64,000 bases of DNA. It comes from Candidatus Omnitrophota bacterium (GTDB taxonomy: Bacteria > Omnitrophota > Gorgyraeia > Gygaellales > Profunditerraquicolaceae). The notes under the pieces are model-generated. The model worked only from the letters and a program-made list of their open reading frames with translations, searched no databases and was not told where the DNA came from. Below are positions 5,258 through 61,500 of this stretch, piece by piece. How positions within the stretch are numbered: position 1 is the stretch's first letter; every line of letters starts with the position of its first letter. The translations under genes and the position numbers were made by a program. The stretch spans positions 77,955-141,954 of the forward strand of contig JAPLLX010000004.1 of assembly GCA_026387335.1 (NCBI GenBank), written 5' to 3'.

Positions 5258-5259
5258 AA

Positions 5260-40535: not shown

Positions 40536-43500
40536 TTATTTTATTTCATCCGTCATTTTTTTCCCAGGCGGCGCGTGTATTAACCTTAAAAGAAAAAGCC
40601 CTATTTCCCCCAACAGCTCTCTACCTAACTGCCAGCTTATCTTATTACTATTCATTGTAACCGGGCTAGAGATTGATACTCTCCTTATTTCAACATTTAA
40701 TCTTCGGGTATCTATTGCCTGTTCGGGCTGCGGCCCGGTTTTTACTTCCCCGCGCGTCGTCGCCATCGCTCCAAACAGACCCACCACCGGCGAGCTGGAA
40801 AGGATAAGGTAAATTTCCGAGCCTAATTCCTCTTGCAGCGATTGCGCGCCTAATCTAACATTCTCGCTTTCATCACTCTTCCACTGCTGGATATAATCAA
40901 TTATTAACTTCTTAATGGCTAAACTTTCTGTTTCTCGGAATAACCGGCTAATCTTTGGAGCATCATTCTGGTACTTAAGCATACCGTGCATCTTCCAACC
41001 AAGGTTCCCTGAAAAATTCCCCCATATTCTTTCGGGTTCTATTTCAACTAAATAATCCAAAGCCGTATTGGTTCCTCTCTCCCCTTGATGATCCAGGGCG
41101 ATTTTATCAAGTATCCTCAAAGCTTCTTTCATATTCAACTTTTTAATCATTTCAGCGATTCTTTCAATACTGTTGTATTTAATTAAAATACTACCGCTGT
41201 TTTCCCTGAAGAAGAGAATCGCCTCAACAGCTTCCCGATAAGGAAGTTCAGCTAAAAGGGCCATTGCTTCCATCTGGATGACATCTTCTTTAGCGCCCTG
41301 ATAATCTTTGAGCTTGCCAATAACTTCCTGAATATCCTTTCTATTATTAAATATACTGTGCATATTCCTTATCTCTTGCCAAATGTCGTTAAATTTTAAA
41401 AGTTCATCTAAAGTATGAGGTATTTTCCCTTTATAGTATTTACGCCTATTCTCTTCCCAGGGAAGAAAGGTATAGAAGTTTTTATACCCAGGAACACTAT
41501 CTCCAATGTTTAAAGTAGCCAGGATCTTATTCTGATGAAGCCACATGAATTCGGCAATACCGCATTCATCGCCTTTATAGAATTGTGTCTCGGGGGAATG
41601 TGCGGCCATGATAAAATCGGTATAGTATGTTACTGCCGGAGTACTTAAATATAGGTAAACATCTGGCTTAGCGCTTTGTAGAAGTTCTATAAAATCCTTA
41701 AGCATCACTCTTACATAACCAAAGAAATTGCCCCTGATTACCCACCAGGTCTTTCCTTCCTTACTCCTATAGAGCAAGATTTGGTATTTCTTTGTTGAAG
41801 CGGCTCTTAATTCCTCTAAGGTTGGCGGTTGGATAAGAAAAGGCTTTTGAATATCGCCGTAGTCCAACTTAAGGGCAGCTGGATTATCAAATTCTTTGAG
41901 TACTTCGGTAAGAGTACCCGGACCTTCCTTTCTTACCTTTGGAAGTATTATTTTTGGCTTCGCAGAAGACAGGAAAAATCTTTTTTGAAATTCTTCGCTA
42001 AAATTACGTTCGATTATCTGCCAATCAAGTTCTAACGCTCTGCCTCCCGAACTACCATCGTAATCGTAAGGCGACTTCTTGAGTTCGTGGGGGAAAAATA
42101 AAATTTTTATTCCATCGATATCTTCTGTTATGTAGCCCTGTAAGTTAAATAATTTGTTTTCTTTACTAACTGGCGAGCTGGACTGCGGCGCTAGGGGTAA
42201 GCCGGAATTAATTGTTGCGGGCACTCCGCTAACATCAACCTCGCTATCCTTAATAAGCACAAAATTCGTATCAGCTAAAAGGTCTTGAACGTGGATAACC
42301 CCTTCTTGACTGCGCGTATAAAGATATATACGTGAATTTTTAGGCTTCTTTGAAAATTCCAGTACAGGAGCGATAAGCCGGCCATTTTCTTTCAAATGAG
42401 GAAGAATATTTTTAATTCCTCCTTCTGTTATAGCCGCGCTAATTACAATCACATCGAATACCTCACGAAGATTCCTATTCAAATAGTCAAATACGTTTTC
42501 GGTGATTACCTTTACATTAGTAACGCGCTGCCGGACGAGGTTTTCTCCAGCCTCTTTTGCCACTTCTTTGATCAATTCAATACCTATTACCTCTCCCTCT
42601 CGCCCCACCTGGCGGCTTAAGATTGCCAGCGAATATCCGCATCCAGAGCCAACCTCAAGAACACGTTCGCCTAATTTAGGATTAACATTAATCAGCATCC
42701 AATAGATTAACGCAGGCTGTGATGTTGTAGAATCATTGCCAGAAAGATTAATTGCTTCATTGAGATGCGCAAGATGTCGCCGGGCCTGCGGTACAAAGTA
42801 GAATCTCTTTACGGCGCGGAAAGCTTTCCAAAGACGCGGACTATATTTAACCCATAAACCCAAAACCGACTTAACATTTATTAATAGCCTCTTCTGAGAC
42901 CGACTTGCTTGAATACGCTCGGACAACCTATTAAACCATTCTCTTACCGGCGAACTGGAGCGATCAAACGGTGAGGCGGCGGGTTTGGTTGCCGGCGAGC
43001 CGGAGCCGCTATCTTTCCCCTTTTTCTTCTTTTGGCTTGCCTCAAGACGCAGGTTGACGATACAGAGTTTCTCTTCTACTTCATCCAATATTAGCCTGAG
43101 TTCTTGGATTTTTGAATCATGGTTACTGACTTCTGCCGAGAGTAGCGCCCTGTCTTCCTGAAGAACCTGATATCTCATTTCGTATGTGGGAAGTAAACTT
43201 AAAAACTCATCACGCGCATAATTCTGATAATTACTCCTGAACATAGCGATGGCTTGTTTAAAACCTAAGATGATTTCGCTTAGTCTCTGGATTTTCAACT
43301 CAACTTTTTGGATACGTAAAGACAACTCCTTTTGTCTCCTTTCCCATGCCTGGCGGTCCTGACCAGATAACTCCTGCTGGACACGCTGTAATTCTTCCAA
43401 TTTTTCCCTACCGGTTATAAGTTGATATTCCAGCGCAGCTGCCTGCTCTTTAAGTCTAGAGATAGCTTTCTTGTTAAGGGGCTTTTGGTAAAATACTGTC

Positions 43501-46500
43501 CTATCGAATAGTTCTACCCGATAAGAACCACCTAAACGTGGATTAATAATAATTACAATCCTCTTCATTGTTCTGTTCGATAATTCAATGGTCCGGTCTA
43601 GGACAACTTTGGGCTCTCTGCGCCGGTGCTGTCTATAAATCGGCGAGCTGGAGCGGTCCACCGGCGAGCTGGAGACAATGAATTCTTCCCATAATATCGG
43701 TTCTTTCAAGCGGTCATCCCGGCTGACAATCAAACCATGCCTATTCCACAATAAACGATCCAACTCATCATTCAATCTTCCAAAATCATAGATTCTATCA
43801 GGGCCAACTAAGGGTAATAGAAGCCTTAAGTACGCTTCCGTATTACTGGTAATATTAAAATTGTAACCAAAGAATACCCCTTGTAATTGGTAATCTTTGA
43901 TTGCCGTTATGATACCTAGGGCTTTAGCTATACCTTTATATACATCGTGGGGGCCGATATGAAGAGGCAATGGCAAAAACTTGTGATTTTTTATTCCTAC
44001 AAACACACACAAGCTACATCCACTGATACAAGTGGTATAAAGAGCTTCTTCAGCATCATCTTCTATCAATAAATTGTTCGGGTAAATCTCATGCATCATT
44101 TGGCCATCATCGAATTGACGAAACTTTCGGTCAAATTTTACAAAATCCTTTCCGTCAAAGAAATACGAACAACCTCGTTTTAGTTCATTATTCACTACCA
44201 TAGCATCTAAACTAAGGTCTATTAAATACCTTCTGCCCATATCAATAAGATTCTGCCTCGGGGATTCGCGGCTTGCCGACGAGCTAGCGGATTCTTTTCT
44301 CCCACTGAATAACCTGTTATGTTCTTCAAAAACAACCTCTTCGACGCGCGTGTACTGTTTCCAAAGCTTGATGGACAAGACATTCGCCATCCATAAAAGA
44401 CTTAGGGTATTCAATCTTTCCTTTTTTTGTCGCAACGAATCTCCAACGGTATCTCTTATTTGCTCCATTTCTTCGGAATTGAGCGGCGGTATCAGCTTAG
44501 CAAAAACATTGCTTATGGCTTTTTTCACTTGCTTCACCGGCGAACTGGACTGAGCCAGTGGCGAGGCAGTAGAATGTAAACAAGACTCCACTACTGACTC
44601 CAATATTTCTATTTGTTTTTGTTCTGGTAATGTAAAAAGGTAGGGGCTAATTAAAAAGCGCATTAAGGAATGGTCGGCTATAAGAATATACTCCGGAGGC
44701 GCAGTAGCCATATAATACCTAGTCAATATAAAACGCTTTGCTAACTCTTTCCTTATCCCGGAAATAGCCAGGCCATAATCATCGCCATACAGTAAAGAGA
44801 TTGCCTTGGTTAATCTTAATGGCCGCATTTCGCTAAGCTTGGAATGTTCCTCTCGAACAAAACTATCAATTAAGTCAAATTCTACTTTAAACCTTTCAGT
44901 TAATGCTTTCGTTATTCTGCCGATATCAGCCGCATCTATCCTTTTCATCTTAGGAAACAATCTAACTGATAATAATTCATTCAACACTGCTATTTTTATC
45001 TTATCTTTTATATCACTAGAGACGTCTATCGGCGAGCTGGTAGGACTAGAAATTTGTTGTGGGCTTAAAGCCTTAAGGCCTACTGCTATTGCCTCTTCTA
45101 TTTTTCCAACATATTCATCGAGGTTTATGGGATCTAGAATCGTAGTTAGCGTTAAATCAGGTAGGTCGAGTTTGCCGGCAGCCATTAAAGTGTTCAGGGT
45201 TAACTGAAAGCGCAAGGAAATACCTGGCTTAAAACATTCTTTATTTAACCACTTTAAAAAGGATACGAATTCCTGCGGGGTAGAGCAAGGCGGGATAAGA
45301 ATACTCTCTTCTTCCTGTGTGTCAGTCCTGTCAAAACTTATTAAACCCGAATATTCCAAAGCAAAAATTCTATCATCGAAAGCACTCTCTTTCTTATAAT
45401 CTAATTTTGCGCTTATAGTTAGCGGTAACCTGGAATACCGGGCGCCAGGATCAATTTCTTCAAAGAAAACCTGAAGCAGCCTGATTTCTGGCTTAGAGAC
45501 GATCAGATGCCCGGTAGTTTGGCAAACGCGGAATATTTTTTTCAATGCCTCTATATCGTTTATTTCTTTCAGTAAGAGAGGGTAGATTATTCTTTCTTGA
45601 TAACCAGAATTTAAAAATGCACCCCTGAATTTCACGGTGTGGTTTGCTATGCCTTTTAATAACTCTAAATCTTTTACTCGCTTTAACCAAGAGGGAAGAG
45701 TTGTCTGTTCGTAGCTACTAGTATAATCGCCTCTTTTCCTGTGGTCAGAGATCAGCAAACTAACTATCCTTAATTCTTTTATGTCTTTTATTAATCTTAA
45801 CCAGGAATAAAGCGGGCACCTTTCATAACTCCAGGAATCACCATAATTTTCTCTAAAATCAAAAATAAGGGCACTAACTATCTCTAACCATTCTATCCCC
45901 TTATCCTCTAAGTATTTTCTCCATCTATGAGAAATGCCTGCATAATGACGTCGGGCATCAGGATTCTCTTTGTATCCCTCTATAAAATCATCTTCGAGCG
46001 CTTTCAATAATTCTTCTTTTCCTACTGGCGAGCTGGAGCGGAAAATCTCTCCTAGCTTAATCATAAACTGCGAGCTGGGGAAAACGGTACTTTCAGGCGT
46101 CACGACTGGTTTAAGATGCCTTAAAATTTCTTTCCAGTCAGCCCAGGGATGAAATTTGTTATAGAAATTGGGGTGCTGTAAACGGTCGTCAGGTAATTCA
46201 TTTAGATTACTTACGCTAATATAAAAAACATTCCCCGGGCCAAAAATGAGACGGGTAGTCATATAACCGAATTTAGAGGATTCGAAGAGTTGCTGACCGC
46301 GTCCCATAGCCGAAATATAATTATCGTATGCATCAAACTCTTCTTTCGACAAATTCTCCTGAATTTTCTCCCAGAGTTCCCGCTGGTATCTAAATAGCCT
46401 TTTGAATCTTTCATGAATTTTGTTTACCTTGTCATCCTCAAAGATTTCCGCTTTGCTAACACATAACGGTACGACAGCAAAAGTCTTTATCAAATCGGTA

Positions 46501-49500
46501 TAGTGCGCAAGATATCTTTTAAGTATATTTTCTATAGCCCTAGGGTTTGCTGAATTCAGAAGCACATTAGCCACCTCAGGAGAAAGTAAATTATAGGAAA
46601 TGCCAGCTGTCTTAAGCAGACGCTCTTGAAGAATTTCCTGGATACGTCTTTTAGTATTAGCATCTCCGGGTAGCCACCCTTTTGTGAGGAAGTGGTCTAA
46701 CTCCACTCCCTTCTCCCTTAATTCTTCCAAAACATACTTCAAATAAGGGTAAAATGATGGGTCATTATTGTGATCGAGCCTGATCATTATCCCGCTGGGG
46801 AGTGCCTTTTTGAGTAGCTGGATAATATCATTTGCCAGATCTTTAGGCATATGGATTATCTTCTTGCGCGAAGAATTAACAATACAGTGAATGCAGCCGT
46901 GATAACAACCATCCGAAAGGCGAAGAATCGTATTCCCCTGCTGTATCTCAAAGTTGTCAAGAAATACAGCGCATTCCTTTGTCATTTCCACCGGCGAGCT
47001 AGCAAGCGGGTATAGTTTATTTCTAATTTTCTCCAATTTTTCCTCATAAGAAAGACCAGATATCATCTCCAGCAGGCTATTGAATGAACCAGATTTAATT
47101 CTTTCACGCGCTTCCGCCATTAGCTGCTTATTGCTCCAGTAAGTATAAAATTCATTTAAGTGTATTGTATGTTCTTCCGGGTCGGTTCCAAAATAGTATT
47201 CCAAAGATAAATACATCTTAACCCAAGATAGATTATCTCCGAGTCCGGGCTCCTGAATATATACAAATGTTTTATCCAGATCCCGCTTTGCTATGTCTAG
47301 ATATTCGCTACTACCAACAGACCGTAAGTCTATATAATGGATAGTCGCTTCGGCACCCGGATCAACAAAATGTATCTTTACGAATGGTGCGTACCTGCTT
47401 ATCTCTTTGACTCCGTGATTTTTCAATTTCGAGATAATATTACTAGTTAAATCCCGCCAGGATTCAGAATAATTCATCGGTAATAGAAAATCGATATCGT
47501 CCACGGCCGCCAAAGGAACAAAACCAGATTCATCTTGCAAATAACGACAACTTCCCACTAACTTAATTCCACTGCGCACCATTTTAAGAATAGACTCAAG
47601 CAATCCTGTATTTAGCCAATATCCTTCGTCTCTTTGTATTACTAAAGCCGGCGAGCTGGAAAGGCCCTTACTCAAGCGACTATCCGCCCTAACCGCTTCC
47701 TTATCCAATTCCTTAACGAACAACTCAATATAAATCTTATTAAAGTAGCCCATTAGATAATCTTTGAGTTCGTCGTTCAGGGCGCGCGACTCCTCAATAA
47801 TATTCCTTATATCCTCGGCGTAGTCTGTTGCGCGTTGAGCAGTCCATTGAAAACGCGGTAAGGTAAGATTATAAATGCGGTCAAAAACCTTAATTATTTG
47901 CGCTGCTGCGTGATAGGACGATCTCCCTGCTAGAATCCTATTTAAATACTCTTTTTCTGTTTCACCCGGCCTCTTGGTAACAATTTCTAAAATTCTATAA
48001 ATCTGATTAGTCTTTCTAAAACTAAAACCTGAATTAATAAATAGCCTGATATAGAGTTGTATCCATAACCAAGGCACCGATTTTCCTTCATCCCGATATT
48101 CCTCAATAACATCATGCAGCAGGGTGGCAGCAATATATACATTTAAAGGCAATCCTAAGGCAATGAGATTATTTTTAAATTTCTCACTTTCCAGGATTTT
48201 ATCTACCTCGTCTAAGGTAACGCCTAAAGGATGCATAAAGTAGGGATAGTTCAGGAACTCACGGACGCCATGACGATGTATGCGTTTGGCAAATTTATAA
48301 GCAAAAGAAGGAAGCATTATGTCCCATCCGGACATTATTTTAAAAAGGTTTTGTTCTAGCCTTGCATAGTTCTCCTTAAACCACGCCTCAAAATCAGTAA
48401 TGGGCCAGTATTGATAAAGAAAGATGTCAATAGAGTGAATGCCTTTTTCTAAAAAGGTAGCTTTGGCTTTGTGTATTAGTCTTAATTCCGGGAAGAAACG
48501 AAACCGCTTTTTTCCAGTGGTCAATAAATACCCTCCTGGCCTTAGCCTACGATATAATTCAGAGGCAATAATGAACGTATTAATAGGAAGATGGCCCTCT
48601 TGCTTATCTTCAAGAATATACTCTAGGTAGTTATAAAGAATAAGGTAAAAAATTTCCTCCTCTCCTAAATCTGTTTGAATCTTAACGAAATCGTTTACCT
48701 CTTTTTTAACTTTCCAGGTTCCGTCTGCTACTTTATTAAAATATTCCTCACGAAAATCTTCTATTTCTTTAGCGCTAAAACTATTTTCACTTAAGGATTG
48801 AAAATGTTCCTCAAGATATGCGCCTTCGAATGCTTTATCAAGATCTTCTCTGCTAGAATCAAAAGCAATAACCTCAAAGTTACTCTGCCCTAGCTTTATA
48901 CCCTCTTTCTTGACGCATACCAAGAAAGCAATCACCATACGGTGAGGCTCAGCTAAGGTAAAGAGGCCGCCTATTTTACGTACCGCTCCCCAACTCAACG
49001 CCCGAATCTTCGGGGTATCTCCATTCTTAAGGCTATCTAAAATAAGCGGATAAACCTTGAGAAGCTCTCCAAATACGCCTCCTTCTTTCCCTTCAGGCCC
49101 CGTATTAAATAAGCAAAATCGATATTTATTTGACGTCTCCGCCGGCGAGCTGGTGCCATATGGAGCTATAATAAGATGTGGCGGTGAAAATCTATCTTTA
49201 ATCATCTCTTCTGTGATAACGATTTCACCTTCTATAATTTTATCTTGGAGGTAATTTAAGAATTCTCTTAAATCAATCAAATCTTCCTTAGACAGCTTTT
49301 CGATATTACTAGGATAGGTAAACCGGGAAGGAATATTGATTAATTGTAAAATCCAAAAGCCCTCACGATATCTTTTTTCAAGATCACAAATTAGTTTATC
49401 TATATAAGCACATAACCCGGAGCGACCCCACCAAAAGCCTTCTTCACAAGCACAGATTCCTATTATTTTTCTTTCCCGGCCGCTTTCAATACATATATCC

Positions 49501-52500
49501 CAAACCTCATTAAAAGGGTAAAGAAAATTAACATTCTTTTCCCTATGATTGAAAAGTAATTCTCTGTACTTATCCCCTATATCACCAATAGAGATTAGTC
49601 CGGTATCAGTAGATAATGCCTTACGATCGACTATTAAATTAACATCTATATCTTCTATATCTTTCATGTTAACCCGTCCGTCTTGCGCCCGGTAGAGCGC
49701 ACTGCCAAATAATTCTACATTTTTTATGGCTTCTGGGATACCCAAGCATTCTTTAGTTATTTTAGATATCTCTTTAAGAACCGTCCAAAGTTTATAGATA
49801 TTTAACCATGGCTCTGCATCCTCTTGTTCTATGAGAGGTAGTTTTTTGGCTTCTTCCCAGTTTTTAGGTATAGCGGAGCGAACCACTGGGCTGGAACCAA
49901 CTTTGCTTAATTCACATAAGCCTATCAACACGTGAATATCCAGCTTGTGGAAGGAGGCAAGGCCGGGGAATTTCGAGCTTCGGAGTTTAAGCAGGAGATC
50001 TCTGGCTAAGTAGGGATAGTTAGCTATAAGCCTTCGTGCAGCAAGATAGGCTGCTAACGAAGCGTTGGAATCCCCTACTTTTATAAGGAAGTCGTAGATT
50101 TCATAGGCTAAGCCTATGTCTATCCCTTCTAACTCCTCTGCTATTTTGCTGGCTTCGTGAATGTCATCCCAAATTCCGTTAAAATTACCTTCGCCACTCT
50201 CTGTATCATCCTTGGCTCTTTGGGCATAAGCTATAGCATCTAATTGTAGTCTCTTTGCAGGAGACGGGTTGATGAGGTTTACTACTGGAGAACTGGATAA
50301 AACAAAACCAGGCTTCCTGGCCCGTAATTCCAACATTTTACTTATGTCTAAATTCTGACTTTTAACCCTGGCATTTTTTATTTCAATATTTGTAAAACCT
50401 TCAAACGCCTTCCCTAAAGATTCATAGTCGAAGAACCGATAAATAATTTCTTTGTGAATAACGAACAGGTCTTCATTAATCCGCAAACCCCTGCCATATC
50501 TTTTATCGGATTTAGAATACACTATAACAAAAACCTTCCCTCCCGGCTTAAGCACCCGCCGGATTTCATCAACTGTGTGTCTCATCTGGCTATCATTTAA
50601 AAAATAGAGGCTGGCATTGGCAATGACTACATCAAATTCTTCATCAGGAAAGGGGAAAGGTTTTAGAAAATCTTGGATACGGGCAAACAACCTGTCCGTG
50701 ATATTATGTTTACTTGCTTCCTTAGACATATAATCTAGGCAAACTGGAGAAATATCCGTAGCTGTTACCAAACAACCCATTTGCGCTAAAATAACGGCGT
50801 CCTGCCTGCAGCCGCAACCTAAATCAAGCACCTTTTGGCCTTTTTTGATCAACTCTTCATTTAACAGCCTACCTAAAAATTCGCTCTGAGGTAATCTTCT
50901 ATTTTTCCAGATACGGGACCATAAAACTTCATGCCTGTTATAAAGCTCTTCCGTATTCACCGAGTTAATTGACGAGCTGGTGCCGTTATTTAATTTGTCC
51001 GCAAGGAAATTAACCAATTCCTCAGAGGCGTCTATAACTTTTATGTCTTTACCTAAAATCTCCTCAATTAAATCTTTGATAGAACTGTAGTGGCTACATC
51101 CTAAAATCAAAACTTTTATCCCCAATGACTTTAGTTCTTCCAAAGGTTGCTTAATTAATCTTTTTATTTCGGCTTTCCCCCAAGCTTGAATTGCTACATG
51201 CTCTCCCTCTCTCATGGTGCGTTCTATTGTTTTTACTACCGCATCGGGAAGAGCCTTGGAAAATACGCTTAGTTCGCTATTCCCTCTTATTAAAGCATCC
51301 TCAAATGCGCCGCTTTGAATAGTCCGCGCGGTAGCAATTACTCCAATTTTTTTACTCTGGGGTAATTCTAGGGCTAGGGCAGCTTTTACCGCGGAATCAA
51401 TGAAACCGAATACTTCTATGCGGTATTTTTTAAGCAATTCTCGTGCCTCTTCCGGAAAATGGGCCGTGATCGTTCCGCAGGCAATAACAATTTTAAAAGG
51501 ATCGTATTTTTCTATGATATCTCTGATTGCCTCGCAGGTAAGGCGCTGGATTTCTGCTGCGGGCTTAGAGCCAAGAGGCGCTTGCTGCATATTCCAGTAA
51601 TATATATACTTGTGAGGTAATCGCCGACGAATCTCATCGAATCCCTTCCTACCGCCTTCACCCGAATCTAAAACCGCTATTGAACCGTTCCTTCTCACCG
51701 TTGAACTGGAACGGCAAGTCAGTTCATTCATCAACCAAATGGTCGCGGGTATGCGCTTAAGGCCATTTATTAAAGGAACGCAAATCTGGTTGCTGCTATC
51801 CGGGTCATACTCATCTACTGAAAAACTTAATTTCCCTTGAAGTAACTCAAAATCATTACCTCTACGGCCAGCCCTATCTCCTATTTTTACTATAGCGTCA
51901 ATGGGAACCCCTAACCTCAAAGATAAATCTTTTAGAGGTAACCCCTTATTTACCTCTAGAGGTAAAATTTCAATGGCTATGCTTGTTCCTTTTGCGTGAG
52001 CAGCAATTTGATACTTTAGAAATAATTCTTCCAGGTGCCTCTGTCTGTAGGCTATCAGATTCTGTTTAGGCGGAACAAGGGTAATTTTATGATCAGTCAG
52101 GGACGCGGACCAATAACTAAAATCTAAGGCATCTGAATATTTAGGTTTTGTAAAATATGCCTGCCAGGAAGGCTCTCGACAAACTAACGCCGGTCCTGTC
52201 TTTATGAATCTTGCGATCTCTTTACGCAACTCATCAGCGAATATTATTTCATAATAAATTTCTCTTGTTCCCATATTATAACCGACTGCCCCGCCCGAAT
52301 GATAGAGATGAACCCTATTGAGTTTTTCACCATTTAGTATCCACGGTTTTAATTGTGGCCTTAAGACAGTTTCTATATACTCCGGCGAACCGCCTGTTGC
52401 TATCGCAAAGTCTTTTTCTATCTCCAGATTTCTATCCATCGCTGCAAACATTTCAGCCTGAAATATGCCTTCAAAGAGCGTCCCATCAAAATCGCTGATT

Positions 52501-55500
52501 ATTGCTCTAAAGTACTCGCCAATGGCGCTATCAAATCTTTCTTGCATAATTTTACGTAACTCTAAATCATTTGCAGCGGCAGAAATATTCTTATGAATCG
52601 GCGAACTGGTGGGCTCTATGCCCTTGGCTTGCTCATCGCTAGGCTCAAAAGGAACCCAAGGACTGAAATTAGCAAGCATAAATTCTAATAACTCAATTAA
52701 AATCTCTTCTTTCCAGTTATCGCAGAGTTCAAAGAAATAAGGATGGATAAATATGGCAGGAGGGTTGATTTTGACGTTAGCGGTATAAGGTTGCTTAGTT
52801 TCGGGGTCTAGGCCTAATTCTTCCTGGCCAGGGGTAATCATCAAAATGAAGCTAAATTCCGGCGGCCCCCGGATTATATTATTACCTTTATCCGGCATCA
52901 ACCTCTGCGCATCTATCTGCCAGATATCAAAACTTGCGCCTTTATCTATCAGGGTTAGAACATATTTATTCCCGATTAATTTAACTGTCACTAACGATGC
53001 AATCTTTATTTCGCCATATTGATTCACTGCTTCGGCGCGCCTATCTACTGGAGGTATAGAGCTATGCGCCGGATTAAAAATCCGTTGTTTCTCTACCGCT
53101 GAGCTAGTGTTATTTTTCTTGCGGTAGATATATCCTTCGCCGATTTCATCTTCATGATACGCCGCAAGAATACCTTCTTTAACCAGCCCGCTGAAACTTG
53201 GTTCTTCCATTCCGCTTACAAATATAAACCCTTCCTCATTCAAAGAGGAAACTAACGCTTGAGCAGCATGATATCTTATTTCTTCCTCTAAATATTCAAA
53301 CACCCACTGGCAGAATATTACATCCGTATCTTTAATGATTAAACCGGATTTGTTATCTTCTAAATCCAGATAGGAGAAGTTTACTAATTCTCTAACTTCG
53401 GGCTTCAATCTATAAATATCTCCCTTAGAGTTAAAATAATCCCTTAATTCGTAACCGTAAGGCAGACCTTCCTCTATACCCCTGTTTCTCCCTACTACCA
53501 CTTCTTCAACAAGATATTCCCCTCTTCGCGCTTCCTCTAACAACGCAAGGTTATTAGCTGTAGCAAAAATCTTGATATCCCAATTACCGATATTCAGCAT
53601 ATAATCCCTAAATAATTTAGCCACTATGACCGCTATTGCGCCGGCTTCCATTCCTAAGCCGCAACCCGTAGACCACAAGTATAGAAATTTATTTTCCTTA
53701 GACGCCCTCTCTTCAATCATGGATTTTAGAATATTTTCTAAATATTTAAAGTGGGTTGAGTAATTCCAGAAGAAAGTAGAACCAAAAATCTGATAAGGAG
53801 TCTCAAACGCTTTCCTCCTCTGGATTACCTCTTCCTTTGTGCTATATCCCTCTACCGACGAGCTGGAGATATGTAGTAACACTTTATTAAGCTTAAGGTT
53901 AGCTACGATGTACGGCGCATCAATAACGACTACTGCCCGGGGATCGTCCAGCGGCTTATCTGATATTTGAAAAATTCTAAAATCAGATGCCGTGCCTTTA
54001 TTCTTCATCCGGCTCTCAAATGCCTGGCGTCCATTTTGGCCTTTTAAAAATACGGGGACTTTGCCCTGTTCATCTGTCTTACCAAGAATGCATTTGGTAC
54101 CTCTAAATTCGGGATCAGGCGTAAATCCTACTTTTTGAAGGACTTTAGCCATAAAAGGATGGTATACTGAAGATGTTTGATGCAGCGTATAGTCTTTTAA
54201 TTCTGCTGTTTGCGGAATAATATTAAACAAAGCGTACAAAAATAAGTAAGAATATCTTTCCTGACGAAAGCCGACAGATACAAACCAGTGGTGCGGCTCA
54301 ATTGTCCTGGTATCGCTATAGGCATAAAAACTTAAGTATCCTATATGTCTATCCTGGTTATACCCCAATTGAAAATTGAGATTAAAAAAGGATTGATTAT
54401 GTTCCATTTCAACCCCGATTCTTTCAAGTAAAACCTCTATGGGTTCTTTCTTTTTGCGAAAAAGGGTAAATTCCTTTATAACGCCCTCTTCCGTGAGTGG
54501 CGAGCTGGAATCTCTGACGAATAACTTATAATCCTCTTCATTAATAACTGTATAACCCCTGCGCCTTAAACTATCATCCAGGCTAAGGGCATAGCCATTT
54601 TGAAAATCTGAGCGGGCTGCCGGGATTGCCCGGCGGAATTCGGTTATTATCCTATCGTTATGGGGAAAACCTTTGATTGTCTCCAGAAACCTCTGGTCCA
54701 GGCGCTCGCCTAAGAACCCGAATAAGGACTGCCTCCTTAATAGCGAGCCATTACTCTTTTGATAAACCAATACCGCTAAGATTTCCGGCGTTTCAATATC
54801 GTTATTCCCGACCAATAAAATTCCGCCTTCGCTTAAAGATCTTGCCAAAGCAGCAACATTGTCTTCGAAATCATCCTGGTTGAACCAGCGGATGACATTC
54901 ATACACCTGGCTACATCGGCCCGCAGCCTGGTATAAACCACTGAACGGAAATCCGTCTCGATAAAATCAATTTTTCCGACATCAGAACAGCAAACATCCT
55001 CAAAGGCTTCTTCATTACTGTCCAAAGCAATTACTTTTGCCTTCTTATCTTTAAGCGCTGTTCTTGCGTAGTTATTTAATTCAATTGTAGTAATCGCTCC
55101 CTTTCCGCAGCCCACATCTATAATAACCAGCTCTTTCCTGTTATTTAAACCCATAGCCGAAAGCAAATAACCGAACAGATAGCTATCTAAAACCTTTAAA
55201 CGCCCGGCTACAGTCTCCATCGCCCCGACATTAACCGAACTGGAGGAATGGGTTTTTAAGTAATCCAGGGTATTCTTTAGATGCTGGACAAGCTGCTTGA
55301 TTTCCAGTCCTTTTATCTCATCCTGGTCAAAGGTATATTCATTTATATCAGCGATGGATATTTCGCCTGAATGCAGCTTTTCAATAAAGACTGGAGCTTC
55401 CCGGGGATTTCTAAAATCGATTTCGTTTTTATTTCTATTTAATTTAGCAACAAAACCAGCTAGATAAATTGTTAAGTATAGAGCCGACATCTTGGTAGTT

Positions 55501-58500
55501 ACATACACCGACGAGCTGGAGCGAATCGGCGAGGCCGAAACTACTTCATGGCTATCCCCTTCAATCTTACCTTTGTGCATATTAACGAAGTCTCTAACCT
55601 TATAAACAAATAAACTGCCTGCTCTATTGAATATGGTAGTATCGGGTAAGCTAATCCAGGAAAGAGTATCCATTTCATCGCCAGGGGGAATAGCCAAGAT
55701 TAAATCCGCTCCGACAAACAGTGCGACTTTAAGCATATACCTTGCTAGCCCCGGATACGGCCTTATGGCATAGATAACGTCTGCATCTTTATATAATACA
55801 AGATCCGGCTGATATATATCATCTAACGCTGTGTCAATTCCGGGATAGCGCACTTTAACTTCCTTTAGCGCTGCTGGCGCAATATCAGTTACTATTATCC
55901 TTGTGTCGGAAGGAAATACCTCCCTGAGCCTTCCTGCGGCTTCAGTATATTGCGAGATACCGATTTCAATAATTTTTTTCGCAAGGGGATAATTATGGAA
56001 TATATAACTAGAGGTAAATTGCCATATATCGGCTGGAGAAGATGTTTTTTCCCAACCCCAACCGGCAGCAGGAGGAGGCCATGTACGATAAAAGATTTGA
56101 TTCGCCTTTAACGGCGGTAAACCTGCTTCATTACCCCAGGGGTCAAACGGCAGTCTATCCGGAACAAAGATAAACGGTGAGAATACTGAAGGATCCAGCT
56201 GGCGCCGCTGCCGGGCTAATTCAGCAGGAGACCTTAACGCATTTTTGACCCTGGAATCCATCGGACTGCTGGATAGAAGGCTGGAATAATCAGCGTAAAG
56301 ATTTTCCCTGACGATTTTATACTTACCATCGCCTAACTTCTGCTCATACTGGACTAAGGTCTCGTTTAGCTGCGGCCAGACATAAGCAGTCATGTATTTT
56401 ATTTCTATATCTTTAGGCGCAGGATCTATTATTATTTTTCTCTCTTGCCCCTTAAAGAATCGCTGATTAAAGGACTGTCTGAGCCTATTAGCAAATACCG
56501 TAGGCTGGTCCTGGTGAGCAATAAGGATTTGCTCACTATCTTGAAAGATACTTCTTATGCCATATGTGGTCTGCTTATTCCATTCTTCAATAAGGGTTCC
56601 TTTTTTAAAGTCATCGAGATCTATATGCCCCAGATAAATACCTGCGTCCTTTACAAAAAATATCGCCAACGGACATCCTTTACAAGTAAATGACATAGAT
56701 TCATTAGCAAACCAGAAACCGGAAGATATGCCGCACTGGAGATTAAGCTCAACGCTAATCTTAGGTCTGGATAATACCAGGGATCTCACAGGGCTAGAAG
56801 AGATACAGGGTCCTTCTTTCAGGAAATCCGCAAAAATAGCAAAGAGTTCGTTATATATAACGCCTCCCAGGTGGCCTCTCTTGGCCAAGGCCAACAGGAT
56901 TTTATCTTTGGGAGTTCCGATTAGGTTGGCTGTCTCAAAAACGCAGGGCCAGGATACAATATGGTCACCGAGGGCGCCTACTATTAAACAAGGTTGGGTG
57001 ATTTGACTAAGGTCTACGCGCCTTCCTCCCACTTCAAAAAGGCCTTTGGCAAGAAGATCGCGTTGAATGATATCTTTAAGATAACGCAGGTGGGCTGAGC
57101 CGACGTGCCGGGCAGTTAGGTAGCTCCACAAAACCAGGTAATTATCGGACACTTGGCCTTGCCAATACCGATTAAGTAGATTAGCAATGCCCGCATGAAC
57201 GATTTCCTCATTTTTTAGAGGCTGAATAAGGTTGAAGAAAGTATCCAGGCTAAGGCCGGGAAAAATTCCTCCGCTCTGTTTAAAGATGTCATCCACAACC
57301 CCGCTCTCAAGGGCTGCCTGGGTCAGGGCATAGATGAGGCCACCGGCATCTTTACCGACTTTAACTGTCGCTGCGCCGGTAAAAATCGTTAATTTCCTGA
57401 CTAGTTGAGGATAAAGACTGGTAAAAACCAGGGATAGCGTTCCTCCAATACAGTAGCCGCCAACGTCAATCTTATCTTCACCGGTCAATTGCTTAATCTT
57501 CTGGTAGGAATTAAGAATCTCCGCGATATAGTCCTCAAAAGTAGCCAGGTCTTTATTCTCCTGAGTTACTCCCTGCCAATCAGTCAGGTAGACTTCAAAA
57601 CCGCGTCCAAGGAGATACTGAATCATACTTCTGCGGATAAGGTCAAAGATATGTGAACCGCCGATCCAGGAATAGATTAAAAGCAGAGGCGTCTTATTGT
57701 TAAGTTTTTCAGGCATATAGCGCTTAAGATGCAGTAATCTGGACTTATAGACAATCTCAGAAGGTGTTTTTGTCAGGCTTTCAGCCCCTAGGCCGTTGTG
57801 GGTGCGTCGAATCTCGGGGAACTGGTTAAATAACTCATAGCTATCGCTAAAATATAGCCGTTGTCCTTCTATGGACCTGGTAAAATAATCAGCATTAAAC
57901 TTCAGGGCCTGGCTTAAAAGGAGCTGGTAAACCGCTGGGTAGTTAAAGTAATGGGCCTTAAATAAAGGAACGATATCTTCATTTAAAGAGTTTAAAGCAT
58001 TGATGTAATATCTACCGAAATGAGATACGCCGCTATATCCAATCTGTGTGTAGATATCCTCAAAGAAATCCTGGATGAGCTGACGGTAAATCTCGCTATA
58101 TTCTTCCTCGGACTTATGCTCAATCTTAGTGACCATATCGCTGTCAGCGGGTACGATTGTAATACTGGACGAACTCGTGCAAACCGTTGCCCCCACCGGT
58201 GAGCTGGAACCATAAATATATTTCATTGTCCCGATTACTTCTGATAATGCCTCATTATGGGCCTTCCCTTCAAATATGACCTTCCAATACCGGGCTGCCA
58301 ATTGAAAATCTGCTTTATTTGCCGCCCAACAGTAAGAATTAAACTCTTTATAATCCTTTACTTCCATCTTGAAGCCTTTATCCGTCTTAAAGTCTTTATA
58401 CTTTATCAATCTATCTAAAACTCCATCTATTTCCTTATCGGATAACGGTGGAATCGGCTCTTCCGGCCGGGAATTTAACGTTTCTTTAAAAAGCCGTGGA

Positions 58501-61500
58501 CGATACCATCCGGCAAAAATTACTACATTCTTATTATCCGATTCAAGCCCAAGGTTGCGCCATTTAAATACGCTCCAGTCTCCGAAGGCATTATCAATGC
58601 CTTGCTCTCTTAATGCTTTTCTTATATCAAACCGTATTTTAAACATGTCGGATAACATCATCAAGGGCATCCCTGTATTTACTTTCTGCTGAATAATAAC
58701 CCCATTAATATAAAGCTTAGGCGCAAATCCCTGAATTTTAACCAATTGCCAGCTATCTATATTTACTGCCCGGGCTCCTACCATCTCTGTAATCAACTCC
58801 ATACCGACAGCCTTCTGAGGATACATCATTGAGCCGAGGCCGCTGGGTATTTTAAATACCACTCCGGGATACCTATCTGCTGTATACACTTTCATCAGGC
58901 AGCCTTCGTCTATAAACTCAACCCCTTCTTTTCTTTGTCCGGCTTCGGAAAGGGTGGCGGTCACCTCATTTAAGTTCGTTAAAAACATTCTTTGTTCATC
59001 TACCACCGCATCTACCGGCGAACTGGAGTAGATAAGCCGCAGGCCCTTGTTTTTAACTTTAATATTCTCTCTTATTTGCTCAATCCTGTCCGACCATTCC
59101 GGCTCTATTTCCAATGCTTTTCTTAGGTCTTCTTCCGCCAATTTCTCTTTCCCTAATGCCACAAAACAATCAGCCCGTTTAATATAAGCCCTGCTCTCTT
59201 CTGGATTAATTTCCAAGGCTTGATTAAGGTATTCCACGGAAGTCCTTACATAGGATTTAGGGAAACCGGGTTTATCTACGCCTTTTAATATGAAATCGGC
59301 TGCGTGGATAAACCGCAGCGCTGACCATTCCGTAAGGCTTAGCTCTTTAAATTTCTTGTGTAGGCTATACTCAATAAAATCGTCCTGCAACACCCAATAA
59401 TTATCCCTCTTGATAAACAGCTTATTTATATCAAACACATCGCTCGTAAACCCATAAATGAAGTCTGCCATTACTTTTCTTTTGTCGGATAACTCAAAGA
59501 GCGACGCAGTATGAAAAAACATTTTTTCGGCGTTACAACTTTCTCTGACTAGGATTAAAGAACTATTAAATCCGACGGCTTCTCCGATAATATAGAAAAT
59601 CTCCGCTAACGAAAAGGGAGTAGCTGCCTTAAAACGAATAGCGGACTGCAGATTAAAGTTATGTTCGGAGCGCTTGAACTTATCGTTCAGAGTTAAAAAT
59701 ATTTCATTTAAGACAACTCTTGCCTCAATATCAACCAACTTCTCTTGATCTATTCTCCCTTCTTGAAAATCCTGCCGGGCTTTTGTTAATGCCGCGTAAC
59801 TGCGTTTTAATAAGGGAATCCCTTTCTTATCCCGGAGAGTATCTATCCAACCCTTAAAATCCTCAAAAGCCTTATCGCTATAACCTAATAGCCTTATTAG
59901 TTCTTCAGCCTTCAGGTATGGCAACTGCAGGTCAAGCTTAATAACATTATTAATTTTTGACAGAGGGCTGGAAGCGGGCAAAAGGCAATTAAAGCCGTCG
60001 GCGGTTAACACCTTATAAACATACTCCGGCGTAATTTTAATATCTTCCAACAGACCGTAATCCGTAATATCCCAACAAGTATATTTAAGGTTTCTATCGG
60101 CTTTCTGTAAAGTATATAAAAACATTCTGTTTTTGCTAAAAACCACTTCCCTGCCCCTGGTCTCATCCACGAGATGGAACAGTAATTTTTTATCCAGATA
60201 AAGCTTTCTTTTTATCTCATTTCCATTCCTGTCCCGGCCTTCTATAATTTCCTCTATAGGCCAAGAACGATCCGGGACATTACCTTTCTCTATTATAATG
60301 GATTTCTCCTTATCTCCTCTTAGCATCCTGGCAATATCTTTCATCCTCCCCATCTCTATCTTTACCTCCCAGGCCAATGCATAGGCTAAAGTATAACTTC
60401 TTTCCACTTCGTATCCGCGGATCACATACCCGGATGGCCCGACTACCAGAATATAAGTCTTATCCCGGCTTTGGTCTATATACATAATATGGCAATAATT
60501 ATTGGCTTCACGATAAACCAGGCCTTCTTTTAAGGTCTTCCGGATAATCTCCCTCACTTCTGGCTCATTAGTGATTATGCCGTTTTTGGTTTGGGCCCCA
60601 AAATACGAAAGGCCGTTAGGCTGGAATTTGATTATATGTTCTTTGATATATTCCCAGCCAAAAGGATTTTTCCGCTCCTGGCTGTTGTAGCCTCTAAAGA
60701 GTACGCTAACATCTTTAGCCTTGATAATATCCTGCAAATTTCCGTTTTTAGGGAAATTTAAATCAAAACCTTTCCTACTTACGGCTTCTTCCAGGCTAAA
60801 CCAACCGCTCAGCCTTTTAGAAAATTCCGCTTCTTGAAAAGCCCGGATTACTTTAGCCCTTGCCTCCTGACCATCTGACTCTTCCCGCAAGATACTCAGT
60901 ATAGTCTTCTCTATCCCGGTGACCCTTTTCTCGTAATCATTCTCGTTTTCTTCCTTTCCCGCATAAAAGTAAAATTCCGCGGGTTCTGTTTCCTTTAATC
61001 CTCTGTTCTTTAGTGCCCTTTTAATCTCTTCTTTGCCTTCTTTAACCTGTTCAGCCTTTTGGATATTGCCTACATAAACTACCAAAAGCAGCTCTTGCGC
61101 ATCAAAAATTGAAAACACCAACTGACCGTTTAAGCAACTAAAGCTCTCCCTATATCCGGACTTCCTGGCTAGCTCCTCTAACCTAAGGCTGGTTTCTTCA
61201 GAATCTATATCCCAACCGTTGATTAGAGATTCTACTAATAAATCCTTGGCGCTATATGTAAAATCTATTACCCCTTTATCAAACAGATAAGAATATTGAG
61301 GATAGTATATATAAAGATCCGGTAATGATTCTTCGGCTATATCCGCCATTTTATTCTTAAGGATAAGGGTTAGTTCTACATAGAGCTTAAAATCTCTTTC
61401 ATCCCGCTCTCTAGTTTTATCTTTCTTATCCAATTTCTTACTTTCCCGTTCCTTTAATTCTAATAACCCGGCAAGACGGTTCCTCAAAGCATCTTTGTCT

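What the first reader, a model, noticed from the sequence alone, without database searches (positions are those of the whole stretch)
47010..49800. SpoT-type HD hydrolase flanked by two minimal nucleotidyltransferase domains
The HD segment carries the hallmark RelA/SpoT hydrolase motifs. These are HPLGV, AALLHDVIEE (48100-48135) and the FDRIYNL helix that corresponds to ADRLHNM. A GS...DxD Pol-beta-type nucleotidyltransferase lies on each side (49633-49710 and about 47484-47562). NTase plus HD is the arrangement of GlnD/GlnE-type adenylyl/uridylyl-transferases and of (p)ppGpp enzymes. Three PilZ domains sit directly downstream of the giant gene. Together these suggest nucleotide-signal handling or protein nucleotidylation.
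Basis: partly seen in the sequence, partly recalled or inferred. Interest (0 to 1): 0.6.

Follow-up and report, generated by a model that had tools for sequence, protein, structure and literature searches.

The report
Alarmone-hydrolase bead in Omnitrophota giant protein
Inside a 7,787-residue multi-enzyme protein of an Omnitrophota bacterium sits a genuine RelA/SpoT-type (small-alarmone-hydrolase-like) HD domain; its fixed partner is a previously unnoticed CheR-like methyltransferase-fold domain, and the two nucleotidyltransferase-like domains beside it are separate modules whose position next to it is not conserved.

Summary
They lie in a 23.4-kb ORF (40536..63899, minus strand) of a Candidatus Omnitrophota MAG.

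The HD segment is a true RSH hydrolase domain. All six RSH motifs (HD1-HD6) are present and invariant across 17 homologues. The family profile hits only Rel/SpoT/SAH/MESH1 structures (best E = 2e-17). The AlphaFold model superposes on MESH1/SAH (TM up to 0.72).

NTase2 folds confidently (pLDDT 87.5), and its top 50 PDB matches are all Pol-beta-superfamily nucleotidyltransferases. NTase1 is a paralogue of its catalytic core (hhalign 88%). Neither reaches any Pfam, NCBIfam or PADLOC model.

A recurrent SSP[VIAML] linker (23 copies against 0.4 expected) puts NTase1, HD and NTase2 in three separate beads. In about 20 homologues and three other giant genes the HD is always fused to a CheR-fold domain and never accompanied by either NTase. 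Neither NTase resembles the RSH synthetase, GlnD or GlnE.

Best reading: a Mn2+-dependent (p)ppGpp/(p)ppApp-type 3'-pyrophosphohydrolase in a new CheR-fold+SAH architecture, sitting beside two independent orphan NTases. Interest is moderate.

The parts
40536..63899 (-). Giant ORF of 7,787 aa: a beads-on-a-string multi-enzyme protein. Pfam finds CheR, alpha/beta-hydrolase, several class-I methyltransferases, HAD, Asp/Glu racemase, radical SAM, PCMT and TPR. No signal peptide or convincing TM helix.
   Evidence: taxon Candidatus Omnitrophota
49149..49895 (-). NTase1 bead (aa 4669-4917), bounded by GSSPV and TSSPA linkers. Putative Pol-beta-type NTase with G4732/S4733, D4750/D4752 and a candidate third carboxylate E4820.
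48360..49094 (-). CheR-fold methyltransferase-like domain 'BN' (aa 4936-5180), in the same bead as the HD domain. It keeps the motif-II Asp and the CheR beta-subdomain. The motif-I GxSTGEE loop is replaced by SxGGV...AEAHR.
   Evidence: Pfam CheR E = 1.4e-4 for the window copy, and 6 of 16 family members hit CheR with best E = 6e-7; profile against PDB CheR 5ftw E = 1.2e-8; Foldseek matches to CheR 5y4r/5xly/5ftw/1bc5 at E about 1e-6
47664..48326 (-). RSH (RelA/SpoT-homologue) HD hydrolase domain of the SAH/MESH1 type (aa 5192-5412). Motifs: HD1 R5213, HD2 H5223, HD3 H5262-D5263, HD4 E5266-E5267, HD5 D5340-R5341, HD6 N5344.
   Evidence: motif definitions from PMC9293644
46992..47648 (-). NTase2 bead (aa 5418-5636), bounded by SSSPA and ASSPV linkers. 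Pol-beta-fold NTase core plus a C-terminal helical domain, with G5449/S5450, D5468/D5470 and a candidate third carboxylate D5524.
   Evidence: AF2 pLDDT 87.5, pTM 0.85; the Foldseek PDB top 50 are all Pol-beta-superfamily NTases, with TUT7 at E = 8e-4 and probabilities 0.8-1.0; GS and DxD invariant in 6 homologues, D5524 present in 4 of 6
46035..46967 (-). Radical-SAM bead (aa 5645-5955) with CxxxCxxC at aa 5665 (CYHGCIHC). It is the next bead downstream and not a conserved partner of NTase2.
   Evidence: Pfam Radical_SAM E = 1.7e-5, below the gathering score; no similarity in NTase2-family proteins; cysteine motif confirmed
49902..50285 (-). Helical bead of unknown function (aa 4539-4666) preceding NTase1.
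   Evidence: bounded by linkers; no family hit; no homologues among the 29 relatives
39410..40453 (-). Two PilZ genes carrying three PilZ domains, 82 bp downstream of the giant ORF on the same strand.
   Evidence: Pfam PF07238 E = 5.8e-12 (one domain) and 2.2e-24 (two domains); annotated as a PilZ domain-containing protein in NCBI

Best explanation
The 2.8-kb interval covers three independent beads of a cytoplasmic, 7,787-residue multi-enzyme protein of an Omnitrophota bacterium. The beads are separated by a lineage-typical SSP[VIAML] linker.

The central bead (aa 4917-5415) is a conserved two-domain unit. A CheR-fold, class-I-methyltransferase-like domain is rigidly packed against a small-alarmone-hydrolase (MESH1/SAH)-type RSH HD domain.

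The HD domain most likely binds Mn2+ through H5223, H5262, D5263 and D5340. It would position a purine nucleotide with R5213 and N5344, and use E5266/E5267 to activate water. The predicted reaction is cleavage of the 3'-pyrophosphate of (p)ppGpp or (p)ppApp, or of a related 3'-phosphorylated nucleotide as MESH1 does with NADPH.

The two flanking beads are paralogous, orphan Pol-beta-fold nucleotidyltransferases with intact GS and DxD catalytic motifs. They probably transfer an NMP from an NTP to an unknown acceptor, and they act independently of the HD domain.

Shown: domain identities, residue conservation, bead boundaries, and non-conservation of the NTase-HD adjacency. Inferred: metal, substrate, catalytic activity, independence of function, and cytoplasmic location.
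For: HD identity:
- The window copy alone gives only weak PDB hits, but all four are small alarmone hydrolases aligned on LLHDVIE and DRIxN.
- 17 homologues keep R, H, HD, E, D and N invariant.
- The family profile hits 23 PDB sequences, all Rel/SpoT/SAH/MESH1/(p)ppApp hydrolases, with best E = 2.2e-17.
- 11 of 17 members hit PF13328 HD_4.
- The profile finds canonical Rel/SpoT proteins at E about 1e-16 in a 5.8-billion-sequence database.
- hhalign against the Rel HD domain gives 99.4%.
- The AF2 model (pLDDT 85.9, pTM 0.85) superposes on MESH1 5vxa (TMt 0.72, rmsd 3.8 A), PaSAH and RelH.
- Motif roles come from PMC9293644. The spacings HD1->HD2 = 10 and HD5->HD6 = 4 are identical to RelH-Cg.

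CheR-fold partner. It is adjacent to the HD in every homologue with enough sequence and in three other giant genes. No linker motif lies between the two domains.

NTases.

Bead independence:
- SSP[VIAML] occurs 23 times against 0.40 expected, and it falls exactly at the domain borders.
- NT1 and NT2 are absent from all BN-HD-bearing homologues, including proteins of 3.3-8.0 kaa, and within about 2,000 aa either side in L002-L004.

Location: no TM helix or signal peptide.
Against: - The window's own HD copy falls below every Pfam and NCBIfam threshold.
- It carries substitutions relative to canonical RSH: HD4 is Glu-Glu instead of Glu-Asp; 'RxNGEPY' has become 'REFLNYPY'; 'DRLHN' has become 'DRIYN', although one family member also reads DRLYN. 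It could therefore have altered specificity or be a binding-only domain.
- No activity data exist for any member of this family.
- NTase fold matches are modest (E about 1e-3, TM 0.26-0.39).
- The third carboxylate of NTase2 is missing in 2 of 6 homologues.
- NTase1 was not modelled.
- Upstream neighbours of NTase2-family modules are nucleotide phosphohydrolases in 3 of 5 cases: RSH-HD here, a generic HD in P0012 and NUDIX in P0023. This hints that NTase2 may not be fully independent of a neighbouring hydrolase.
- Homologue sampling is thin: 29 cluster representatives.
Confidence: 0.7

Rival explanations
1. One reading: NTase-HD-NTase is one integrated nucleotide-signalling enzyme. It would be either GlnD/GlnE-like (nucleotidylation and de-nucleotidylation of a protein) or Rel-like (alarmone synthesis by an NTase-fold domain and hydrolysis by the HD).
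For: - The three domains are physically adjacent in this protein.
- The order HD -> NTase2 mirrors HD -> synthetase in Rel/SpoT.
- NTase2-family modules are preceded by a nucleotide phosphohydrolase domain in 3 of 5 cases.
- PilZ genes lie downstream.
Against: - Linkers separate the three domains.
- The adjacency appears in none of about 20 BN-HD homologues and none of the three other giant loci.
- There is no match to GlnD, GlnE, MNT or RelA_SpoT models.
- hhalign of NT2 and NT1 against an RSH synthetase profile with correct motifs gives 1.6% and 0.5%.
- The NT2 profile finds nothing in the PDB, including Rel structures.
- The GlnD HD belongs to the generic PF01966 type, not to RSH (general knowledge).
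Confidence: 0.08
2. The HD domain is a catalytically dead or re-purposed RSH domain, comparable to the pseudo-hydrolase of E. coli RelA. It would serve as an alarmone-binding regulator or structural partner of the CheR-fold domain.
For: - The window copy is too divergent to reach any Pfam HD model.
- The second HD4 residue is Glu here, and Gly or Ala in two homologues.
- The tight predicted packing with BN (pTM 0.85) suits an allosteric module.
Against: - All four metal ligands, the HD4 Glu, the HD1 Arg and the HD6 Asn are invariant across 17 sequences that are only 22-34% identical to the window copy. That pattern indicates selection on catalysis.
- True pseudo-hydrolases lose the HD dyad (general knowledge of RelA).
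Confidence: 0.15
3. The giant ORF is a polyprotein. SSSPV sites are cleaved, releasing free enzymes: a stand-alone CheR-SAH protein, two stand-alone NTases, a radical-SAM enzyme and others. On this reading, neighbourhood within the ORF carries only operon-like meaning.
For: - The linker motif is extremely over-represented, has a near-fixed sequence, and sits exactly at domain borders.
- It recurs in other Omnitrophota giant genes.
- The beads are unrelated enzymes.
Against: - No protease specific for such a site was identified.
- Ser/Pro-rich linkers are common in uncleaved multidomain proteins.
- The literature read here treats these as single giant proteins.
- No experimental data exist.
Confidence: 0.1

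Closest known systems
Small alarmone hydrolases (SAH) / MESH1 of the RelA-SpoT-homologue superfamily (e.g. human MESH1 5vxa/3nr1, P. aeruginosa SAH 6yvc, C. glutamicum RelH 7qod)
   Same: - Single all-alpha HD domain of about 200 aa with no synthetase, TGS or ACT domains.
- All six HD motifs present.
- Best structural matches (TMt 0.62-0.72) and profile E = 1e-11 to 1e-13.
   Different: - Not a stand-alone protein. It is permanently fused to a CheR-fold domain and embedded in a 7.8-kaa polypeptide.
- A longer insertion lies between HD2 and HD3 (39 residues against 24).
- HD4 is Glu-Glu.
- About 20% identity to solved SAHs.
- Substrate untested.
Long bifunctional Rel/SpoT enzymes (e.g. RelSeq 1vj7, Rel-Mtb 5xnx)
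   Same: The hydrolase domain is homologous: best profile E = 2e-17, and hits at E about 1e-16 in the 5.8-billion-sequence database.
   Different: - No RelA_SpoT synthetase, TGS, or ACT/RIS domains.
- The NTase-like domain that follows the HD is unrelated to the synthetase at profile level.
CheR chemoreceptor glutamate O-methyltransferases (1af7/1bc5, 5ftw, P. aeruginosa CheR1 5xly/5y4r)
   Same: The BN domain shares the class-I MTase fold, including the CheR-specific beta-subdomain region 'A..G.Y....yF....y.vk...r..i.F'.
   Different: - No CheR N-terminal helical domain was detected.
- The motif-I SAM loop is replaced.
- The post-III 'RNVxIYF' reads 'YNxxEYxxE'.
- It is fused to an HD domain.
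- SAM binding and the methyl acceptor are unknown.
Pol-beta-superfamily nucleotidyltransferases with a helical C-terminal domain (TUT7 5w0o, GLD-2 6lbj, Cid1 4fh3, Pol beta; NTase-like protein 5uvd)
   Same: - An alpha-beta-GS-alpha-beta(DxD) core followed by a helical domain.
- The third acidic residue lies about 54 aa after the DxD, similar to my recollection of Cid1/OAS-type spacing.
- These are the top 50 Foldseek hits.
   Different: - Only fold-level similarity (E about 1e-3, 10-19% identity, TM 0.26-0.39).
- No Pfam family is reached.
- The GS-to-DxD spacing is 16-17 residues rather than the 9-13 I recall for minimal NTases.
- The acceptor substrate is unknown.
Multi-enzyme giant proteins of Omnitrophota (West-Roberts et al. 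2023, bioRxiv 10.1101/2023.11.21.568195; 2026 preprint 10.64898/2026.06.07.730766, class 1 'multi-enzyme metabolic clusters')
   Same: - Omnitrophota origin.
- Many unrelated enzyme Pfams tile one very long polypeptide. They include methyltransferases, HAD, radical SAM and 'HD-domain' content.
   Different: - At 7.8 kaa it is at the small end of the range.
- It has no TM segments, HEAT repeats or dockerins.
- Neither paper mentions an RSH-type HD, a CheR-HD unit, these NTase families or the SSSPV linker.

Membership tests
RSH superfamily hydrolase domain (HD_4; SAH/MESH1 type) | HD1 Arg that stacks on the base | tested here: met
   R5213 is invariant in 17 homologues; definition from PMC9293644
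RSH superfamily hydrolase domain (HD_4; SAH/MESH1 type) | HD2 His, HD3 His-Asp and HD5 Asp-(Arg/Lys) as Mn2+ ligands | tested here: met
   H5223, H5262-D5263 and D5340-R5341; H, HD and D are invariant. The HD1->HD2 spacing of 10 and HD5->HD6 spacing of 4 match RelH-Cg.
RSH superfamily hydrolase domain (HD_4; SAH/MESH1 type) | HD4 Glu-Asp pair for nucleophilic attack | tested here: inconclusive
   E5266 is invariant. The second residue is Glu (E5267), not Asp. Across the family this position is Asp or Glu in most members, and Gly or Ala in two.
RSH superfamily hydrolase domain (HD_4; SAH/MESH1 type) | HD6 Asn | tested here: met
   N5344 is invariant
RSH superfamily hydrolase domain (HD_4; SAH/MESH1 type) | Significant sequence match to the family model or to solved members | tested here: met
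   The family profile matches 23 RSH structures, best E = 2.2e-17. 11 of 17 members hit PF13328. hhalign against the Rel HD gives 99.4%. Caveat: the window copy alone reaches no Pfam model and only E = 0.009 against PDB 7p1y.
RSH superfamily hydrolase domain (HD_4; SAH/MESH1 type) | All-alpha HD fold superposable on MESH1/SAH | tested here: met
   AF2 pLDDT 85.9; Foldseek matches to 5vxa TMt 0.72, 3nr1 0.70 and 6yvc 0.70
RSH superfamily hydrolase domain (HD_4; SAH/MESH1 type) | Mn2+-dependent 3'-pyrophosphohydrolase activity on (p)ppGpp/(p)ppApp | not testable with these tools
   biochemistry required
Long bifunctional Rel/SpoT | RelA_SpoT synthetase domain (PF04607) after the HD, plus TGS/ACT regulatory domains | tested here: not met
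   No such Pfam hits in the giant protein. NT2 and NT1 against the synthetase profile give 1.6% and 0.5%.
GlnD/GlnE-type nucleotidyltransferase-HD enzymes | GlnD/GlnE-family NTase domain functionally coupled to an HD domain in a conserved architecture | tested here: not met
   No GlnD, GlnE or NTP_transf model matches. The HD is of RSH type. The NTase-HD adjacency is absent from all homologues.
Pol-beta-superfamily nucleotidyltransferase (NTase2, aa 5418-5636) | hG[GS] motif followed by DxD/E on the next strand | tested here: met
   G5449-S5450 and D5468/D5470 are invariant in 6 sequences. In the model, the GS lies between strand 29-31 and helix 33-36, and the DxD lies on strand 51-56.
Pol-beta-superfamily nucleotidyltransferase (NTase2, aa 5418-5636) | Third catalytic carboxylate on a neighbouring strand | tested here: inconclusive
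   D5524 lies on strand 99-107 of the model. It is present in 4 of 6 homologues.
Pol-beta-superfamily nucleotidyltransferase (NTase2, aa 5418-5636) | Alpha/beta NTase fold | tested here: met
Pol-beta-superfamily nucleotidyltransferase (NTase2, aa 5418-5636) | Membership of a curated NTase family (NTP_transf_2, MNT, CD-NTase, AbiEii and similar) | tested here: not met
   No hits in Pfam, NCBIfam, PADLOC or by PDB profile
Pol-beta-superfamily nucleotidyltransferase (NTase1, aa 4669-4917) | GS...DxD motif and NTase fold | tested here: inconclusive
   GS, DID and E4820 are invariant in 3 sequences. hhalign to the NTase2 core gives 88%, E = 3e-6. HMM cross-hits fall at 5e-3 to 3e-5.
CheR methyltransferase (BN domain, aa 4936-5180) | Class-I MTase fold with the CheR beta-subdomain | tested here: met
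   Foldseek matches to CheR at E about 1e-6, TMt 0.50-0.53; profile against 5ftw E = 1.2e-8; 6 of 16 members hit PF01739
CheR methyltransferase (BN domain, aa 4936-5180) | Intact SAM-binding motif I (GxSTGEE-type loop) and the CheR N-terminal helical domain | tested here: not met
   Motif I is replaced by 'SxGGV...AEAHR'. The motif-II Asp is retained. No CheR_N Pfam hit was found.
Omnitrophota multi-enzyme giant proteins | Omnitrophota origin; one very long ORF tiled by many unrelated enzyme domains | tested here: met
   NCBI labels neighbouring proteins Candidatus Omnitrophota. The 7,787-aa ORF carries at least 10 distinct enzyme Pfams. Description taken.

The most novel reading that the evidence does not exclude
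The CheR-fold+SAH bead is a new kind of RSH enzyme found so far only in giant genes of Omnitrophota-type MAGs. In it, a methyltransferase-like domain gates an alarmone (or NADPH/PAPS-type) hydrolase, or is gated by it. This would link protein or small-molecule methylation to the stringent response. It could be controlled by the c-di-GMP-binding PilZ proteins encoded immediately downstream, by analogy with MapZ-CheR1. In addition, the SSSPV junctions might be processing sites that release the beads as free enzymes.
Probability: 0.15. Interest if true: 0.7.

Novelty: new variant of a known kind. Interest (0 to 1): 0.42.

Why it matters
RSH hydrolases control (p)ppGpp and (p)ppApp levels. Known small alarmone hydrolases are stand-alone proteins, or antidotes to toxic synthetases.

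A hydrolase permanently fused to a CheR-fold domain, found only inside giant multi-enzyme proteins of Omnitrophota-type MAGs, would be a new RSH architecture. It would also be one of the first functionally interpretable beads in these enigmatic proteins, and its prediction can be tested directly in vitro with a 500-residue construct.

The result also shows that neighbouring domains in these giants need not be functionally coupled. The SSP[VIAML] linker gives an objective way to cut such proteins into units for annotation. The two NTase beads define orphan families that current profile libraries miss.

Tried and rejected
- **Direct family scans.** Pfam, NCBIfam and PADLOC scans of the three segments found no HD or NTase family, even at E <= 10. 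Identification needed homologue-based profiles.
- **Single-sequence word-index search of module B.** It returned nothing, not even the protein itself.
- **Alignment-seeded word-index search.** It returned only canonical Rel/SpoT proteins. That confirms RSH membership but says nothing about the architecture.
- **Genome scan.** A 4-sequence alignment worked.
- **NTase2 as a divergent RSH synthetase.** Rejected by hhalign at 1.6% and 0.5%.
- **Radical SAM as a conserved partner of NTase2.** Rejected, because the NTase2-family proteins show no similarity to it.
- **Downstream PilZ as a MapZ-like CheR regulator.** No detectable similarity to MapZ or any solved PilZ, so it remains speculation.
- **Loose 'GS...DxD' motif as evidence in itself.** Rejected: 5 observed against 4.1 expected.
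- **Literature.** Searches for the SSSPV linker and for CheR+SAH fusions found nothing relevant.

Full report
**Setting.** The interval 47010-49800 lies inside one open reading frame of 7,787 codons on the minus strand (40536..63899). Exact-sequence look-ups of five neighbouring proteins show that the window comes from an NCBI metagenome-assembled genome labelled Candidatus Omnitrophota bacterium (MCX5695799-835, 328-kb contig).

Pfam finds many unrelated enzyme domains along the ORF: CheR, alpha/beta-hydrolase, several class-I methyltransferases, HAD, Asp/Glu racemase, radical SAM, PCMT and TPR. There is no signal peptide or convincing transmembrane helix. This fits the multi-enzyme class of very long Omnitrophota proteins described in two preprints. 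Neither preprint mentions RSH-type HD domains, CheR, ppGpp or these nucleotidyltransferases.

The loose GS...DxD pattern is no rarer than chance in this protein (5 observed, 4.1 expected), so the motif alone proves nothing. Conservation in homologues provides the real test. The three PilZ domains just downstream are real.

**Finding relatives.** The segments reach no HD or NTase model in Pfam, NCBIfam or PADLOC, even at E <= 10. A word-index search found no homologues.

A single-sequence PDB search of the central segment gave only four weak hits (E = 0.009-0.2). All four are small alarmone hydrolases, aligned on LLHDVIE and DRIxN.

An exhaustive HMMER scan of 1.84 billion cluster representatives with aa 4539-5640 found 29 relatives. 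Many are themselves 3-8 kaa long.

**The HD domain.**
- In a 17-sequence alignment the invariant residues are R5213, H5223, H5262, D5263, E5266, K5337, D5340 and N5344.
- According to PMC9293644, RSH hydrolases are defined by six motifs: HD1 Arg and HD6 Asn (base binding), HD2 His, HD3 His-Asp and HD5 Asp-Arg/Lys (Mn2+ ligands), and HD4 Glu-Asp (nucleophilic attack). In RelH-Cg these are R24, H34, H58/D59, E62/D63, D122/K123 and N126.
- The window copy has all six with the same HD1->HD2 (10) and HD5->HD6 (4) spacings. The one change is Glu for Asp at the second HD4 position.
- The family profile hits 23 PDB sequences, all of them Rel, SpoT, SAH, MESH1 or (p)ppApp hydrolases (best E = 2.2e-17).
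- 11 of 17 members individually hit PF13328 HD_4.
- The profile retrieves canonical Rel/SpoT proteins at E about 1e-16 from 5.8 billion sequences.
- hhalign against a Rel HD alignment gives 99.4%.
- An AlphaFold model of aa 4920-5416 (pLDDT 85.9, pTM 0.85) superposes its C-terminal half on MESH1, PaSAH and RelH, with TM normalised to the target of 0.62-0.72.

More precisely, the domain is of the single-domain SAH/MESH1 kind.

The 245 residues upstream of the HD (aa 4936-5180) form a CheR-fold domain.
- Pfam CheR gives E = 1.4e-4 for the window copy, and 6 of 16 relatives hit it (best E = 6e-7).
- The profile matches CheR structure 5ftw at E = 1.2e-8.
- The top Foldseek hits of the model's N-terminal half are CheR enzymes at E about 1e-6.
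- It retains the motif-II Asp and the CheR-specific beta-subdomain, but its motif-I loop differs. SAM competence is therefore uncertain.
- Local HMM searches show that this domain and the HD are adjacent in every relative with enough sequence, and in three further giant genes from species-representative genomes. Two of those are labelled Omnitrophota and one Planctomycetales.

**The NTase-like domains.** The downstream one (aa 5418-5636) has five relatives with invariant GS and DxD. Its model is confident (pLDDT 87.5, pTM 0.85). All 50 listed PDB matches are Pol-beta-superfamily nucleotidyltransferases (TUT7, Pol beta/lambda, GLD-2, Cid1, PAPD1, 5uvd), at modest scores (E about 1e-3, TM 0.26-0.39, probability 0.8-1.0). 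A candidate third carboxylate, D5524, is present in 4 of 6 sequences.

The upstream one (aa 4669-4917) has two relatives with invariant GS, DID and E4820. It is homologous to the catalytic core of the downstream domain (hhalign 88%, E = 3e-6).

Neither family reaches any curated NTase model. Both are best described as orphan Pol-beta-fold families.

**Are the three coupled?** Several results argue against it.
- The motif SSP[VIAML] occurs 23 times in the protein against 0.40 expected (maximum 4 in 300 shuffles). It falls exactly at domain borders, giving these beads: 4669-4917 (NTase1), 4917-5415 (CheR-fold+HD), 5415-5634 (NTase2) and 5634-5956 (radical SAM). The same motif recurs in the other Omnitrophota giant genes.
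- No relative carrying CheR-fold+HD carries either NTase, including proteins of 3.3-8.0 kaa. No NTase lies within about 2,000 residues in loci L002-L004.
- The NTases are unrelated at profile level to the RSH synthetase domain (1.6% and 0.5%, against 99.4% for the positive control). They also match no GlnD or GlnE model.
- The radical-SAM bead after NTase2 is likewise not a conserved partner.

One observation points the other way. NTase2-family modules are preceded by a nucleotide phosphohydrolase in 3 of 5 cases: the RSH-HD here, a generic HD in P0012, and NUDIX in P0023. The sample is too small to weigh.

**Mechanism proposed.** The central bead is predicted to be a Mn2+-dependent 3'-pyrophosphohydrolase acting on (p)ppGpp or (p)ppApp, or on a MESH1-like alternative substrate. 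The attached CheR-fold domain would modulate it or supply a second activity. The two NTases would act independently on unknown acceptors.

Domain identities, residue conservation, bead boundaries and non-conserved adjacency are shown. Metal, substrate, activity and location are inferred.

**Rivals.**
- An integrated GlnD/Rel-like enzyme (largely refuted by the co-occurrence data).
- A binding-only pseudo-hydrolase (argued against by the invariant ligands).
- A polyprotein processed at SSSPV sites (untested).

**Verdict.** The finding is a new architectural variant of a known enzyme family, set in a known class of giant proteins. Interest is moderate. The most testable novelty is the CheR-fold+SAH unit.

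Noticed in passing
window 40536-63899 (whole giant ORF); also L003 and L004: A near-fixed linker motif SSP[VIAML], mostly SSSPV, occurs 23 times against 0.40 expected by shuffling, and 'SSSP' 14 times against 0.06. It falls exactly at domain borders. The same motif recurs 8-9 times in about 4,470 aa of two other Omnitrophota giant genes. It could be a flexible linker, a processing site or a modification site. Nothing on it was found in the searchable literature.
   Followed up: partly
P0012 (aa 2409-2841), P0023 (aa 679-1086), window 46992-48326: Modules of the NTase2 family are immediately preceded by a nucleotide phosphohydrolase domain in 3 of 5 cases: RSH-HD here, a generic PF01966 HD in P0012, and NUDIX in P0023. 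The pairing may be recurrent, but the sample is too small to test.
   Followed up: partly
window 39410-40453 and 48360-49094 / 53205-53780: The giant protein carries two CheR-type domains: a canonical Pfam CheR at aa 3374-3565 and the divergent one fused to the HD. Three PilZ domains are encoded 82 bp downstream. Among the best structural matches of the divergent domain is CheR1 bound to the c-di-GMP-loaded PilZ protein MapZ (5xly/5y4r). The downstream PilZ shows no sequence similarity to MapZ, so a regulatory link is only an idea.
   Followed up: partly
window 46035-46967: The bead after NTase2 is a radical-SAM-like domain with an intact CxxxCxxC (CYHGCIHC at aa 5665). It scores below Pfam's gathering threshold (E = 1.7e-5).
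   Followed up: partly
window 40536-63899: The giant protein itself did not come back from either search: the word-index search of the 5.8-billion-protein collection found nothing, and the best hit in the 1.84-billion representative library is only 38% identical. Its neighbours, by contrast, are present as NCBI proteins MCX56957xx-58xx. The giant gene may be unannotated, split, or called with another start in the source record.
   Followed up: no
L002 (CAZAXH010000015.1): A contig labelled 'uncultured Planctomycetales bacterium' carries the same CheR-fold+HD unit inside an open frame that fills the whole 13.4-kb locus. It has only one SSSP linker, against 8-9 in the Omnitrophota loci. The cause may be a mislabelled bin, or this giant-gene type may extend beyond Omnitrophota.
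   Followed up: no
window 49902-50285: A 128-residue helical bead (aa 4539-4666) between the methyltransferase bead and NTase1 has no family match and no homologue among the 29 relatives.
   Followed up: no
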